In this document: one piece after another, positions 1-57,399 of the stretch
How the letters are laid out: every line of letters starts with the position of its first letter
Position numbering within the stretch: the first letter of the stretch is position 1
Source: Chiloscyllium plagiosum
Taxonomy: Eukaryota
Length of the DNA: 61,350 nt
Assembly (NCBI RefSeq): GCF_004010195.1
Contig: NC_057752.1
Coordinates: forward strand, 13,294,007-13,355,356
Reading direction: 5' to 3'
The notes under the pieces: generated by a model
Seen by the model: the letters and a program-made list of their open reading frames with translations, nothing else
What the model was told of the DNA's origin: nothing
Databases searched by the model: none
Made by a program: the position numbers and the translations under genes

Positions 1-1658
1 AAGAACATGGCGTAGTTTTTCAGCTCCTGGGAAATACTGACCAACGAAGGGTACCCTGTCGGTTGCAGCACGTGTCTGTCTCCTGAGGAGGTCATTATGG
101 TTTCTCGCTGTGGCACGTCGGAATTGGCGGTCGATGAATTGAGCATCGTACCCCGTTCTTATGAGGGCATCCCTGAGTACTTCCAGGTGCCCGTCACATT
201 CCTCCACATTTGAGCAGATCCGGTGTACGCGTAGGGCTTGTCCAGAGGGGACGGCTGTTTTAATATGTTTCGAATGGAAGCTGGAGAAGTGTAGCATTGT
301 GAGGTTATCCATGGGTTTGCGGTAGAGTGTGGTGCTGAGGTGCCAGTCCTTGATGGAGATACATGTGTCCAAGAATGAGACAGATGGTAGAGAGTAGTCC
401 GTGGTGAGTTTGATGGTGGGATGAAACATGTTGATATCACTGTAGTTGTTTCTCCTTGCCATGCGTCCAGAGGAAGAAACTGTTGTCAATATGTACGGTG
501 TATAGTGTTGGTTGGTGTATAGTGTTGCGCAGAGAAGAAGTCTTGTTAAAACCTGTGCATGAAAATGGTGGCATATTGTGGGTACAAATTTCATCCCCAT
601 GGCTGTTCCATGTGTCTGGATGAAGAACTGGTTGTCAAAGGTGAAAACGTTGTGATCAAGGATAAAGCAGATGAGTTGTAGGATGGTGTTTGGAGATTGG
701 CAGTTGTTGGTGTTGAGTACTGAGGCTGTTGCCGCGATGCCATCATTGTGGGGGATGCTGAGGAATGTTCCCGGTTTGACTAGTCCGTGGGTGCTGAGTT
801 TCTGTAAGAAATCTGTAGTGTCGCGACAGAAGCTGGAGATTCCCTGTACAATAGGTTTCAAGATGCCTTCCACATAGCTGGAGAGATTCTCACACAGGGT
901 CCCATTGCCCGATACGATGGGACGTCCTGATGTGTTGGCTTTGTGTACCTTTGGAAGGCAGTAGAAGTTGCCTACGCGAGAAGTACGTGGGATGAAGGTG
1001 CGTAGGGAACTCTGAAGGACTGGATCCAAAGTCCTGATGAATGTTTTTAGTTCACTGGTGTGCTGTTTGGTCGGATCAGCCGGTAGTTGCCTGTAGTGTT
1101 CCCGGTTATTCAGTTGTCGGTACACTTCCTTGCAGTAGTCCGTTCCATTCTGAATGACAATGGCTCTTCCTTTTTCTGCTGGTTAGATGACAATGTTGCG
1201 ATTTGGTTTTGAGAGCATGGATGGCGTTGCGTTGTGATCAAGCGATATTCTGCTCTACTTTGTGGGTACAGCTGACGAATCTGGCATTTATATATTTCCT
1301 GACGGTTTGAGCATACATAGGCAAAAGTGAGGACTGCAGATGCTGGAGATCAGAGTCTAGATTAGAGTAGTGCTGGAAAAGCACAGCAGGTCAGGCAGCA
1401 TCCATGGAGTAGGAAAATCGACATTTTGGGCAAAAGCCCCTGAATGAAAGGTTTGAGCATACGTGTCAAGCCCAGGGCAACAGCCCTCCGGTGGGGTCCA
1501 AGTTGCCCCTCTACAGATCTCTTTGATGACTGACTGTGTTCCAGTTTGTCAGTGGGCTCATTGGGATCACTGCTGGCATCTTGAAAAAATTCCGAGTGTC
1601 TCATCCGTGTGATGAATTCCTCCATGTCCATAGGGTCCGTTTTGGTGGTGGCAGAATC
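1..1658 (-). mobile_element. Penelope-like element (PLE) reverse transcriptase region, degenerate, runs off window start
   Basis: Minus-strand translation gives PLE-type motifs across frameshifts: DMEEFITRM..EFF, TWTPPEG..PGLDTYAQ, QTHGTAMG (RT motif B), YIDNSFFLWTHG (degenerate YIDD motif), GQALRVHRICS...DRVPFVGQYFPGAEKLRHVL. Interrupted at 1317-1449. Confidence 0.85.
1317..1449 (-). mobile_element. Short PLE-terminal element, family A (degenerate hammerhead)
   Basis: Matches AAAGTGAGGACTGCAGATGCTGGAG... family; 13-bp TSD GGTTTGAGCATAC at 1304-1316 and 1450-1462. Confidence 0.85.
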
Positions 1659-13610: not shown

Positions 13611-15287
13611 TTTGATTATGTCATGCTTGTGTCAGTGTGGGCTGTAGCCATCGTCATTGGCTGTCTGTCAATTTCCAGATGACAGGATTGTTGAGTTTCT
13701 GTTGTGGATTTTCATGTGAGTGAGCAGGCTCGTTCTCGAGGCCCTGGGTCTTAGGGCACCTGGGGGCAGGATGTAGTCCCGTGAGGTCGTGGGATCCGCA
13801 AGGCAGGATTTGCTCCCTCTCCCTTCCTTCTCTGTAGCTCCTTTGCCTCATCTTGAAGACTCAGCGTGATATAGTTCAATGGACAAGTTGTTGCCATTTC
13901 AAACAATTGGGAGCGAGCCCCCCCCCCCCCCGCCCCAATCATTAACGTCAAGAGCATCTTTGAAGTGTTTGACTTTGTCCTCTCCTGGAACACTGGCTCT
14001 TTGAGAATTGGAAGGACAAGATCTAGCAGAGATGGCAGGGAAGAGAGGTTTGGGGGGTGGGGGGGGAGTGGATGCTTTTCAGATGTTGCCTGAATGCTTC
14101 AAGATAAGCACAGACATTGTTTGATGACAGGAAAGCTGTGACAGAGCTAGAAAACAGCACACATTTAGTGTCATGAGTCACAGAGATGTACAGCATGGAA
14201 ATGGATCCTACGATCCAACTCGTCCATGCCGACCGGATATCAGAAATTAATTTAGTCCCATTTGCCAGCATTTGGCCCATATCCCTCCAAACCCTTCATA
14301 TAACCACCCAGATGCCTTTTAAATGTTGTCATTGTACCAGCCTCCACCACTTCCTCTGGCAGCTCATTCCATACACGTACCACCCTCTGTGTGAAAAAGT
14401 TACTCCTAAGTTCCCTTTTATATCTTTCCCCACTCACTTTAAACCTATGCCCTCTAGTTTTGGACTTCCCCACCCCAAGGAAAAAACCTTGTCTATTTAT
14501 CCTATCTATGCCCCTCATGATTTTATAAACCTCTATGAGGTCACCCCTCAGCCTCCGACGCTCCAGGGAAAACAGCCCCAGCCTGTTCAGCCTCTCCCTA
14601 TAGCTCAAATCCTCCAACCCTGGCAACATCCTTGTAAATCTTTTCTGCACCCTTTCAGGTTTCACAACATCCTTCCTATAGCAAGGAGACCAGAATTGCA
14701 TGCAGTATTCCAAAAGTGGCCTAACCAATGTCCTGTACATCCACAACATGACGACCCAACTCCTATACTCAGTGCATTGACCAATAAAGGAAAGCATACC
14801 AAACGCCTTCTTCACTATCCTATCTACCTGCGACTCCACCTTAAAGGAGCTATGAACCTGCACTCCAAGGTCTCTTTGTTCAGCAACACTCCCTAGGACC
14901 TTACCATTAAGATAAGTCCTGCTAAGATTTGCTTTCCCAAAATGCAGCACCTCACATTTATCTAAATTTAACTCCATCTGCCACTTCTCAGCCCATTGGC
15001 CCATCTGATCAAGATCCCATTGTAATCTGAGGTAACCCTCTTCGCTGTCCACTACACCTCCAATTTTGGTGTCATCTGAAAACTTACGAACCAGACCTCC
15101 TCTGTTCACATCCAAATTATTTATATAAATGAGGAAAAGTAGTGGACCCAGCACCGATCCTTGTGGCACACCATTGGTCACAGTCCTCCGGTCTGAAAAA
15201 CAATCCTCCACCACCACCCTCTGTCTTCTACCTTTGAGCCAGTTCTGTATCCAAATGGCCAGTTCTTCCTGTATTCCATGAGATCTA

Positions 15288-15412
15288 CCACCTGATGAAG
15301 GAGCGTCGCTCCGAAAGCTAGTGTGCTTCCAATTAAACCTGTTGGACTATAACCTGGTGTTGTGTGATTTTTAACTTTGTACACCCCAGTCCAACACCGG
15401 TATCTCCAAATC
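15288..15412 (+). mobile_element. 125-bp hammerhead-containing insertion, family B (probable PLE terminal repeat)
   Basis: 15-bp TSD ATTCCATGAGATCTA (15273-15287, 15413-15427); the paralogous CR1 near 38490 shows the empty site. Confidence 0.92.
15289..15323 (+). ncRNA. Minimal type-I hammerhead ribozyme motif
   Basis: CAC-CTGATGA-A-GGAGC(GTC)GCTCC-GAA-AGCT-A-GTG: 3-bp helix I, 5-bp helix II, palindromic AGCT helix III, predicted cleavage after CUA (15320). Confidence 0.8.
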
Positions 15413-16543
15413 ATTCCATGAGATCTAACTTTGCTAATCAGTCTCCTATGAGAAACCCTGTCGAATGCCTTACTGAAATCCATATAGATCACATCTACCG
15501 CTCTGCCCTCATCAATCCTCTTTGTTGCTTCTTCAAAAAACTAAATCAAGTTTGTGAGACATGCTTTCCCACGCACAAAGCCATGTTGACTATCCCGAAT
15601 CAGTCCTTCCCTTTCCAAATACGTGTAAATCCTATCCCTCAGTTTTCCCTCCAACAACTTGCCCACCACTGAGGTCAGGCTCATTGGTCTATAGTTCCCT
15701 GGCTTGTCCTTACCACCCTTTTTAAACAGTGGCACCACGTTAGCCAACCTCCAGTCTTCAGGCATCTCACCTGTGACTATCGATGATACAAATATTTCAG
15801 CAAGAGGCCCAGGGTACTAGGCCTCTAGGGTACACCTGATCAGGTCCTGGGGATTTATCCACCTTTAACCGTTTCAAGACATCCAGCACTTCCTCCTCTG
15901 TAATATAGACATTTTTCAAGAGGTCACTATTTATTTCCACAAATTTCCACTCATCTTCCATATTCTTCTCTCCAGTAAACTCTGATGCAAAATACTCGTT
16001 TAGTATATCTCCCCGATCTCTTCTGGTTCCACACATAGCTGGCCTTGCTGATCTTTAAGGGGCCCTATTCTGTCCCTAGTTACCCTTTCGTCTTTAATGT
16101 ATTTGTAGAATCCCTTTGGATTCTCCTTAACCCTGTTTGCCAAAGGTTGAGTTCTCAGTGAATATTTTATTCACTAATTTGCTTTTCTATTGGATGTTGT
16201 CTTCTGAGATGCTGGGAGAAAGTCTTCCAGTCCTCACTTATAAATGTTTTTTCTTCCTCTCTGCTCTGCTCAAAGGCAGCTGTCGAAATATAGTTCAGTG
16301 TGCATTCCTGAGTCTGGCTGCATTGTCTTTCCAAGCTGGCTAACTAGCAGGCATGCCTTTCATCCCCAAGACGTGAAACTACCACACACATGAATGAAAA
16401 TAGGCGGTGCAAATTTCTTGGCACTGACTCAGTTGCCTCATGGTGACATCTTTAAATACAATTGGGAATGTCAGTGCAGTCATTTTGTTGATTGCATATG
16501 GGTCTCACGAAGCTTACCTCAATCTGTGGTTAGCTGAATTAGC

Positions 16544-37564: not shown

Positions 37565-39155
37565 ATAGAGTCATTGAGATGTACAGCACGGAAACAGACC
37601 CTTCGGTCCAACTTGTCCATGCCGACCAGATAAGCCAACCTAATCTAGTCTCACTTGCCAGCACTTGGTCCATATCCCTCTAAACTCTTTCTATTCATAT
37701 ACTCATCCAGATGCCTTTTAAATGTTGCAATTGTACCAGCCTCCACCACTTCCTCTGGCAGCTCATTCCATACACGTACCACCCTCTGCGGGAAAGGTTG
37801 CCCCTTAGGTCCCTTTTATATCTTTCCCCTCTCACCCTAAACCTATGCCCTCTAGTTCTGGAGTCCCCCACCCCAGGGAGAAGACTTTGTCTATTTACCC
37901 TATCCAAGCCCCTCATGATTTTATAAACCTCTATAAGGACACCCCTCACCAATGTCCTGTACAACCGCAACATGACCTCCCAACTCCTGTACTCAATACT
38001 CTGACCAATAAAGGAAAGCATACCAAACGCCTTCTTCACTATCCTATCTACCTGCGACTCCACTTTCAAGGAGCTATGAAACTGCACTCCCAGGTCTCTT
38101 TGTTCAGCAACACTCCCTGGGACCTTACCATTAAAATAAGTCCTGCTCAGATTTGCTTTCCCAAAATGCAGCACCTCGCATTTATCTGAATTAAACTCCA
38201 TCTGCCACTTCTCAGCCCATTGGCCCATCTGGTCAAGATCCCGTTGTAATCTGAGGTAACCTTCTTCGCTGTCCACTACACCTCCAATTTTGGTGTCATC
38301 TGCAAACTTACTAACCATACCTCTTAAGCTCACATCGAAATCATTTATATAAATGACGAAACATAGTGGACCCAGATCCTTGTGGCACATCACTGGTCAC
38401 AGGCCTCCAGTCTGAAAAACAACCCTCCACTATTACCTTCTGTCTTCTACCTTTGAGCCAGTTCTGTATCCAAATGGCTAGTTCTCCCTGTATTCCATGA
38501 GATCTAATCTTGCTAATCAGTCTCCCATGATGAACTTTGTCAAACGCCTTACTGAAGTCCATGTAGATCACATCTACCGTTCTGCCCTCATCAATCCTCT
38601 TTGTTACTTCTTCAAAAAACTCAATCAAGTTGTGAGACATCATTTCCCACGCACAAAGCCATGTTGACTATCCCGAATCAGTCCTTGCCTTTCCAAATAC
38701 ATGTACATCCTGTCCCCCAGGATTCCCTCCAACAACTTGCCCACCACTGATGTCAGGCTCACTGGTCTATAGTTCCCTGGTTTGTCCTTATCATCCTTCT
38801 TAAACAGTGGTACCACGTTTGCCAGCCTCCAGTCTTCTGGCACCTTACCTGTGACTATCGGTGATATAAATATCTCAGCAAGAGGGAGGTCACCATCTAT
38901 TTCCCTACAGTCTATATGTTCCATATCCTTTTCCACAGTAAATACTGATGCAAAACACTCATTTAGTATCTCCCCCATTTTCTATGGCTCCACACAAAGG
39001 CCGCCTTGCTGATCTTTGAGGGGCCTTATTCTCTCCCTAGATACCCTTTTGTCCTTAATGTATTTGTAAAAACCCTTTGGATTCTCCTTAATTCTATTTG
39101 CCAAAGCTATCTCATGTCCTCTTTTTGCCCTCCTGATTTCCCTCTAAAGTATACT
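37565..39155 (-). mobile_element. CR1 LINE, 5'-truncated, with two internal deletions
   Basis: FADDTK, DFSKAFDKV, PGNYRPVSLTS; close paralogue of 14170-16145. Confidence 0.96.
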
Positions 39156-49419: not shown

Positions 49420-49990
49420 AGGGACATAGAAATGTAGAATATAGGTACAGGAGAAGGCCCTTCAGCATGTCAAGGCAGAAGTGGGTACTGCAGATGCTGG
49501 AGATTAGAGTCAAGAGCAAAGTGGTGCTGGAAGAGCACAGCAGGTCAGGCAGCAGCCAAGGAGCAGCAAAATCGACGTTTCGGGCAAAAGCCCTTCATCA
49601 GGCTTTTGCCCGAAACGTCGATTTTCCTGCTCCTCGGATGCTGCCTGACCTGCTGTGCTCTTCCAGCACCACTTTGCTCTTGACCCTTCAGCACATCGAG
49701 CCTGCTGATCATGGATCTCAGTCCCCTGTTCCCGCTTTCGCCCCCATACACTTTCATCCCTTTATTCCCTACAAACGATCCCTAACTCCCACTTGAAATG
49801 CTTCGGCCTCAACTGCTTGTTGTGGCAGAGGATTCCAAGGGTTTCCCCACTCTCTGGTTTTGCTGTACTCCCTCCATCACCAGAACACCCTTCCTCAGAT
49901 AAGGAGACCCAAACTGCACACAATACTCCAGGTGTAGTCTCACCAAGGCCCTGTCCAACTGCAGCAAGACATCCCTGCTCCTGTACTCTT
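49420..49990 (-). mobile_element. Old CR1 3' end hosting a family A insertion
   Basis: CATAGAAA..AGAATATAGG..CAGGAG tail; LVRLHLEYCVQFG motif. Confidence 0.75.
49468..49683 (-). mobile_element. Family A element with long inverted duplication (hammerhead at the axis)
   Basis: Arms 49509-49592 and 49601-49684; TSD CCCTTCAGCA (49458-49467, 49684-49693); minus CTGATGA-A-GGGC(TTTT)GCCC-GAAACGTC. Confidence 0.92.
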
Positions 49991-57181: not shown

Positions 57182-57399
57182 GGTGAAAATGTGTTGCTGG
57201 AAAAGCGCAGCAGGTCAGGCAGCATCCAAGGAACAGGAGAATCGACGTTTCGGGCATAAGCACTTCCTGAAGAAGGGCTTATGCCCGAAACGTCGATTCT
57301 CCTGTTCCCTTGGATGCTGCCTGACCTGCTGCGCTTTTCCAGCAACACATTTTCAGCTCTGATCTCCAGCATCTGCAGCCCTCACTTTCTCCCTGAGGG
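57182..57399 (+). mobile_element. Family A element with inverted duplication and complete hammerhead motif (57264-57297)
   Basis: Arms 57184-57261 and 57277-57355; CTGAAGA 57267-57273, GAAA 57287-57290, CGTC 57291-57294; ATATTTGG duplicated (57174-57181, 57400-57407). Confidence 0.92.

What the first reader, a model, noticed from the sequence alone, without database searches (positions are those of the whole stretch)
15288..15412. 125-bp mobile unit that is little more than a hammerhead ribozyme plus a hairpin (family B)
Seen: a clean insertion into a young CR1 with a 15-bp TSD; the paralogous CR1 near 38490 has the empty site. It starts 4 nt before CTGATGA and has helix II GGAGC/GCTCC, GAAA, palindromic AGCT, a CUA triplet and helix I CAC/GTG. 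A 9-bp stem follows (TGTTGGACT 15340-15348 / AGTCCAACA 15388-15396). Known: PLE terminal repeats carry minimal type-I hammerheads with palindromic helix III that are thought to work as dimers. Inference: this ORF-less unit moved by itself as a non-autonomous, retrozyme-like element using PLE proteins.
Basis: partly seen in the sequence, partly recalled or inferred. Interest (0 to 1): 0.75.

Follow-up and report, generated by a model that had tools for sequence, protein, structure and literature searches.

The report
Jumping gene's capped RNA front end
This 125-base insert is real but shows no sign of being a separate self-spreading ribozyme element: it is one of thousands of short copies of a Penelope-like jumping gene, likely made when the enzyme copied only the capped front end of the element's own messenger RNA, which would help explain how this poorly understood class inserts.

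Summary
Observation confirmed: 125-bp insert (15288-15412), perfect 15-bp TSD, empty paralogous site, minimal hammerhead motif. The 'retrozyme-like element' reading is not supported. The insert is the last 125 bp of the pLTR of a Neptune-type Penelope-like element (PLE); a full RT-endonuclease copy was recovered. Short and long copies share one consensus and mix on a tree; only 2 head-to-tail monomer junctions were found genome-wide; copy ends avoid the ribozyme cut site. Yet truncation is not smooth: 3,482 of 10,965 arms lose the template match 9-10 nt before the hammerhead core, 30 nt below a TATA box, and 1,693 of 2,144 non-template bases there are G, as expected from copying an mRNA cap. 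Best reading (0.7): reverse transcription starts internally at the ORF's ATG and runs off the capped 5' end of the element's mRNA, leaving a promoterless stub. Ribozyme activity and the start site are untested. PLE hammerheads, tails and internal starts are published; the cap-G cliff was not found in six literature searches. This scan already noted the leader-copy reading on other shark DNA.

The parts
15273..15287 (+). Left copy of 15-bp target-site duplication; its last 3 bases (15285-15287) also match the element's upstream sequence (microhomology)
15288..15412 (+). Insert: last 125 bp of the pLTR of a Neptune-type PLE (q-4 to q+120, where q0 = C of CTGATGA at 15292), equal to the predicted mRNA 5' leader less 1-4 nt
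15289..15323 (+). Minimal type-I hammerhead motif (core 15292-15298, helix II 15300-15312, GAAA, palindromic AGCT, predicted cut after 15320, 3-bp helix I); activity untested
   Evidence: PMC4209133
15332..15352 (+). Polyadenylation signal ATTAAA (15332-15337) and the positions equivalent to poly(A) sites seen in family RNA reads (15349 and 15352)
   Evidence: 358 and 446 reads with poly(A) loose ends at L061:2092 and 2095, run X21 (possibly a related species)
15340..15396 (+). 9-bp stem 15340-15348/15388-15396; the second family 3' end (q+82 to +89, 15374-15381) lies in its loop
15377..15412 (+). PLE 'tail' (about 32-38 nt) between the two family 3' ends; 15412 is the base before the ORF's ATG in full copies
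   Evidence: PMC11167929
15413..15427 (+). Right copy of the TSD; first 2 bases also fit the ORF's ATG
14380..16150 (-). Host: decayed LINE reverse-transcriptase region (CR1-type by recall), interrupted by the insert; limits approximate
38492..38506 (+). Empty site in the paralogous LINE copy

Best explanation
The insert is the last 125 bp of the terminal repeat of a Neptune-type Penelope-like retrotransposon, and it likely arose when the element's reverse transcriptase started internally just before the ORF's ATG and ran off the capped 5' end of the element's own mRNA, leaving a likely dead-end stub without its TATA box. Shown: family, fixed 3' ends at q+120 and q+82..89, a sharp 5' cliff at q-8 with G excess at q-9, TATA at q-38, no separate short lineage. 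Inferred: q-8 is the Pol II start; the G is the copied cap; the endonuclease made staggered nicks about 15 bp apart; here one cDNA was joined to the other target end by a 3-nt microhomology, whereas in most short insertions two such cDNAs (one from each start) were joined head to head. The hammerhead is carried along because it lies 8 nt inside the leader; it does not set either end. Short copies would be common because the main poly(A) site (q+57..60) lies before both RT start sites, so a normally ended 3' repeat lacks them while the 5' leader always has them.
For: Full partial-tandem copy L061 with ATG directly after q+120, RT (Pfam RVT_1, E 6e-8) and C-terminal endonuclease-like region. Genome-wide exact counts extending the motif leftward: loss 1,201 of 12,166 at q-8, 2,144 of 10,965 at q-9, 1,338 of 8,821 at q-10, 288 of 7,483 at q-11. 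G is 1,693 of 2,144 non-template bases at q-9, against 26, 12 and 36 of the first 100 listed at q-8, q-10, q-11 (hand counts). 29 of 30 G loci stop at q-8. TATA at q-38, 30 nt above q-8. In a 3'-anchored sample 32 of 76 arms start at q-9..+2, 23 are spread over q-15..-900. Short/long arms not separable. Two genomic dimers (L140, L141) show short arms continuing about 90 nt into the ORF, so their template was the mRNA front end. Poly(A) at q+57/+60 in RNA reads. Two internal RT starts making the tail are shown in vitro for an anole PLE (PMC11167929); extra G from the cap is described for full-length L1 (PMC11702581).
Against: The start site was not seen in RNA: two read lays showed no pile-up of ends (a single-cell poly(A) library, possibly another species, so weak). 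In only 5 of the 29 G loci read by eye (L082, L084, L089, L090, L091; two are the arms of one locus) is the G clearly untemplated; in most it can also be read as the last base of the partner arm or of the TSD. The window copy itself has no G and stops 1-4 nt short of q-8. 7,195 of 10,965 arms run past the cliff, so longer read-through templates are also much used. A second small cluster at q+12..20 (8 of 76 arms) is unexplained by this model. Samples are the best-scoring or first-listed hits, not random. An internal promoter inside the stub is not excluded (D. virilis Penelope has one in its 5' UTR, PMC8557442).
Confidence: 0.7

Rival explanations
1. One reading: an ORF-less, retrozyme-like element that is transcribed and amplified as its own unit using PLE proteins.
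For: Discrete length class exists; 13 solo short copies among 121 distinct insertions, 8 with a TSD of 8 bp or more; retrozymes are proposed to derive from pLTRs (bioRxiv 10.64898/2026.07.22.740005); rare tandem joints in the genome (2, 3) and in RNA (ORF back to q-8: one joint each in X21, X1, X3).
Against: No separate lineage; no arrays; ends not at the ribozyme cut (1 of 76 and 3 of 244 arms in q+27..31); the stub lacks the TATA box; in the anole PLE the first 172 nt of the ORF are needed for insertion and ribozyme cleavage is not.
Confidence: 0.07
2. Reverse transcriptase copying long read-through RNA stalls at the hammerhead fold, so the cliff is structural rather than an RNA end.
For: The cliff lies within 8 nt of the motif; 22 of 76 arms start at q-6..+2 and 8 at q+12..20, inside the fold.
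Against: A stall is expected on the 3' side of a fold, not after it has been copied; it explains neither the single-position G excess nor the 30-nt spacing from TATA.
Confidence: 0.12
3. This particular copy is an ordinary random 5' truncation of a long PLE cDNA that happened to stop near the hammerhead.
For: 5' truncation is usual in PLEs (PMC8557442); long arms end anywhere from q-15 to q-900; this copy has no G.
Against: End density is 2.4-3.3 per nt at q-9..+2 against 0.01-0.08 per nt upstream of q-15, so a copy ending here far more likely belongs to the cliff class.
Confidence: 0.11

Closest known systems
Endonuclease-bearing Penelope-like elements, Neptune/Nematis type (PMC8557442; PMC3846280)
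   Same: pLTR-ORF-pLTR partial tandem, 5'-truncated and inverted copies, 30-40-bp tail, TSDs, TATA/Inr-like motifs in the pLTR, CX2-5CxxC linker, solo pLTRs
   Different: The passages seen explain head-to-head palindromes by self-priming on an antisense template and TSD-less solo pLTRs by recombination or deletion; here solo stubs have TSDs and arms pile up at a predicted capped sense start with an extra G
Anolis Poseidon element PAc (PMC11167929)
   Same: Two internal RT start sites that make the tail; hammerhead near the ORF start; cleavage not needed for insertion; ATT at the target (the window TSD starts ATT)
   Different: PAc starts lie 111-118 nt inside the ORF and its hammerhead overlaps the start codon; here the starts lie at and about 35 nt before the ATG and the hammerhead is wholly in the leader
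Minimal hammerheads of metazoan PLEs (PMC4209133)
   Same: Conserved core, extra base before helix II, G-C closing pair, palindromic 15.2-16.2, mostly single motifs ascribed to truncated PLEs
   Different: Helix I only 3 bp and helix II 5 bp; no activity data for this family
Non-LTR retrozymes (PMC7229834; bioRxiv 10.64898/2026.07.22.740005)
   Same: ORF-less, pLTR-related, type-I hammerhead
   Different: Those are tandem repeats processed hammerhead-to-hammerhead into circular RNAs; this family is not tandem and its ends are not at the cut site
Extra G at 5' junctions of full-length LINE-1 insertions (PMC11702581); retroviral strong-stop DNA (recalled)
   Same: cDNA runs off a capped RNA 5' end
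   Different: For L1 this marks the longest copies; here, because RT starts internally near the 5' end, it marks the shortest

Membership tests
EN+ Penelope-like element (Neptune type) | Single ORF with RT | tested here: met
   L061:2806-4437 hits Pfam RVT_1, E 6.4e-8; ORF has one stop and frameshifts
EN+ Penelope-like element (Neptune type) | C-terminal GIY-YIG endonuclease | tested here: inconclusive
   VY...YIG motif seen by eye in L061:4326-4814; Pfam gave 0 families
EN+ Penelope-like element (Neptune type) | CX2-5CxxC linker between RT and EN (Neptune/Nematis) | tested here: met
   C-X4-C-X2-C in L061; definition in PMC8557442
EN+ Penelope-like element (Neptune type) | Partial tandem pLTRs, inverted 5'-truncated copies, 30-40-bp tail, TSD | tested here: met
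EN+ Penelope-like element (Neptune type) | RT phylogeny placing it in Neptune rather than Nematis | not tested
   no tree with reference PLEs was built
Minimal type-I hammerhead | CUGANGA/GAAA/NUH core, extra base before helix II, G10.1-C11.1, palindromic 15.2-16.2 | tested here: met
   sequence against PMC4209133; Rfam models do not match
Minimal type-I hammerhead | Self-cleavage as a dimer | not testable with these tools
   co-folding two copies did not give the hammerhead dimer; no pile of read ends at the cut, weak test
Non-LTR retrozyme | Head-to-tail tandem repeats with a hammerhead per unit | tested here: not met
   2 exact monomer junctions genome-wide against 10,965 arms reaching q-8
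Non-LTR retrozyme | Unit RNA bounded by ribozyme cuts | tested here: not met
   1 of 76 and 3 of 244 arms start at q+27..31
Non-LTR retrozyme | Circular monomer RNA | tested here: inconclusive
   a few backward joints in RNA have genomic counterparts; poly(A) library unsuited
Non-autonomous SINE-like PLE derivative | Own lineage with diagnostic variants | tested here: not met
   identical consensus, shared variants; 25 changes vs 26.7 +/- 2.2, 161 of 500 shuffles as low

The most novel reading that the evidence does not exclude
Shark PLEs make a strong-stop-like product: RT starts internally and runs off the capped sense mRNA leader, and these cDNAs integrate singly (this insert) or as head-to-head pairs primed from both target nicks. 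The extra G then maps the start site from the genome alone, settles the template as sense RNA, and the poly(A) site placed before the RT starts explains why ribozyme-bearing stubs reach thousands of copies without any retrozyme cycle.
Probability: 0.6. Interest if true: 0.55.

Novelty: new variant of a known kind. Interest (0 to 1): 0.36.

Why it matters
How PLEs make their inverted ends and why genomes hold thousands of lone minimal hammerheads is open. A cliff at a predicted capped start with an extra G gives a concrete, testable template (sense mRNA leader) against the published antisense self-priming idea, and warns that dispersed 'monomeric retrozymes' may be by-products of autonomous PLEs. 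As a single insertion the finding is ordinary.

Tried and rejected
Rfam scan of the window: no hammerhead match. Pfam on the endonuclease region and ORF N-terminus: 0 families. Sequencing-run search: no RNA holder on record; raw runs came only by species label; X22 laid 0 reads. Two read lays showed no pile-up at q-8 or at the ribozyme cut; the second reference had three private differences, lowering sensitivity. Idea that the host LINE carried the insert to other sites: 1 match genome-wide, the window itself. Idea that the 9-bp stem marks an intron: no splice joint over it in the reads. Co-folding gave a helix-II duplex, not the hammerhead dimer. G count for the second family mixed several subfamilies and is not usable. 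Automated TSD search is crude: 62 of 121 insertions gave 8 bp or more, many long ones missed. Earlier-findings look-up by sequence returned nothing.

Full report
Numbering: q0 is the C of CTGATGA (window 15292); an 'arm' is one collinear piece of the family.

Observation. The insert is 125 bp (15288-15412) between exact copies of a 15-mer, which occurs once at the paralogous LINE site; flanks align at 91% and 90%. Rfam found no hammerhead; the motif agrees with the minimal PLE hammerhead described in PMC4209133 (parts 1-2 of 4 read). The LINE-plus-insert junction is unique in the genome (1 match). The genome is 3.56 Gb; its repeats look like those of a shark (recalled, not tested).

What it belongs to. 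A search of the own genome with the insert gave 1,310 candidates, 40 scored, all 98-100% identical. Locus L061 holds a whole partial tandem: truncated endonuclease end and 3' UTR, hammerhead, the 125 bp, then directly ATG, an RT (Pfam RVT_1, E 6.4e-8), a C-X4-C-X2-C linker, a GIY-YIG-like region (by eye; Pfam 0 families), 3' UTR and a second repeat ending at q+120. By PMC8557442 (passages) this is the Neptune/Nematis type; no RT tree was built. So the insert is the end of the pLTR and, in a tandem, the stretch just before the ORF.

3' ends. Among 244 arms in all fetched loci, 103 end at q+120 and 92 at q+82..89. The roughly 35 nt between them is the PLE tail, which in the anole element lies between two internal RT start sites (PMC11167929, parts 1-2 of 4 read). 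That paper also reports that the first 172 nt of the ORF are needed and that ribozyme cleavage is not.

5' ends. In a sample anchored on the last 63 bp (40 hits of 1,289 candidates; 76 arms in those loci), 32 arms start at q-9..+2, 2 at q-14..-10, 23 between q-15 and q-900, 8 at q+12..20, 1 at q+27..31, 10 elsewhere downstream. Whole-genome exact counts give the same cliff: extending the motif leftward loses 1,201 of 12,166 at q-8, 2,144 of 10,965 at q-9, 1,338 of 8,821 at q-10 and 288 of 7,483 at q-11. At q-9 the template has C; the other bases are G 1,693 and A+T 451. At neighbouring positions G is 26, 12 and 36 of the first 100 listed (hand counts). Of 30 G loci, 29 stop at q-8 and one is a long copy with a substitution; of 30 C loci 28 run on beyond q-40. 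Long copies have TATA at q-38, 30 nt above the A at q-8, in an initiator-like context (consensus recalled). An extra G from the mRNA cap is described at full-length L1 junctions (PMC11702581, one passage). Against over-reading: by eye the G is clearly untemplated in only 5 of 29 loci; in most it doubles as the last base of the partner arm or TSD, which still needs a cDNA ending in C to be so enriched. The window copy has no G; its left border can be read as q-4 or, through 3 shared bases, q-7.

Is there a separate short element? 107 short and 70 long arms (4 intermediate left out) have the same consensus and carry the same variants; two positions just inside the 5' end differ in frequency (p 0.009 and 0.025, uncorrected, 11 variable positions) but are not private. 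On a tree of 49 short and 36 long arms that reach q+118, labels change 25 times against 26.7 +/- 2.2 (161 of 500 shuffles as low); 119 columns give limited power. One long copy is identical to the window copy over those columns. Exact head-to-tail monomer junctions number 2, both parts of complex insertions. Of 121 distinct insertions, 82 have several arms, mostly head to head, and 13 are solo short copies like this one, 8 with a TSD of 8 bp or more. Three junctions join ORF sequence to a q-9/-8 start; in L140 and L141 an arm runs from about q-3 to 90 nt inside the ORF and is followed by a second arm from q-9/-8, showing that cliff-class arms were copied from RNA continuing into the ORF. Retrozymes are defined as tandem units with hammerheads and circular RNAs (PMC7229834, passages; bioRxiv 10.64898/2026.07.22.740005, parts 1-3 of 5, supplements not seen); those features are not met or untested here.

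RNA. In raw single-cell poly(A) reads of run X21 (added by species label, possibly another species; about 2 in 100 of the run read) 358 and 446 reads carry poly(A) at q+57 and q+60, 12-15 nt after ATTAAA. Reads come from any family copy, host UTRs included. No pile-up of ends appeared at q-8 or at the ribozyme cut; the library is poorly suited, so neither start nor cleavage was tested.

Mechanism. Inferred: the pLTR promoter starts a capped mRNA at q-8; its first 129 nt hold the hammerhead, a poly(A) signal and both RT start sites. The protein nicks both target strands about 11-15 bp apart and primes internally. On the leader the RT runs off after about 129 or 93 nt; one product is joined to the far target end (this insert) or two are joined head to head. 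Long copies (7,195 of 10,965 arms pass the cliff) need read-through RNA of tandem copies. The stub has lost the TATA box and the downstream ORF, so it is probably not remobilised; an internal promoter is not excluded. PMC3846280 (passages) explains the palindromes by antisense self-priming while leaving a sense template open; G on both arms (L089/L090) favours sense run-off.

Novelty. Hammerheads in pLTRs, lone motifs from truncated PLEs, tails, inverted copies and internal starts are published. Six searches found no report of a cap-G cliff or leader run-off copies in PLEs; subscription papers, including the 2017 dimer-cleavage paper (recalled, not seen), are outside the library. My reading was noted before consulting earlier scan findings; the scan has 66 findings on this theme, several with the same leader or twin-priming reading, unchecked and not independent support. 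Verdict: real, a known class, with a moderately interesting mechanistic signature; interest 0.36.

Noticed in passing
window 32885 (+), 37492 (-), 57267 (+; palindrome 57220-57319), 49601 (-; palindrome 49554-49639): A second PLE-terminus family with a minimal hammerhead (different helix II, ACGT in place of AGCT); 31,178 exact matches of a 29-nt core genome-wide. Same layout in 30 loci: many copies start about 4 nt before the core, palindromes, two 3' ends about 35 nt apart. Its palindromes give weak Rfam miRNA hits below gathering score.
   Followed up: partly
L061:2092 and 2095 (window equivalents 15349, 15352): The family's repeat acts as a poly(A) site in RNA reads; one abundant read class has a non-family flank joined 3 nt before the core, suggesting a short copy ends a host transcript.
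   Followed up: partly
L140:1300-1651, L141:481-817, L139:1380-1606: Rare arms end about 90 nt inside the ORF and are joined to a q-8 start: a possible third RT start or template jump; similar backward joints occur in RNA runs.
   Followed up: partly
family arms, q+12 to q+20: Secondary cluster of 5' ends inside helix II (8 of 76 arms), usually paired with a partner arm that reaches q-3..-8; unexplained.
   Followed up: no
family arms, q+32 to q+33: A 2-nt deletion just after helix I is shared by 17-18 of 107 short and 9-12 of 70 long arms and by 267 of 1,318 reads.
   Followed up: no
window 37920-37950 versus 14550-14720: The paralogous LINE lacks about 170 bp present in the copy that hosts the insert.
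   Followed up: no
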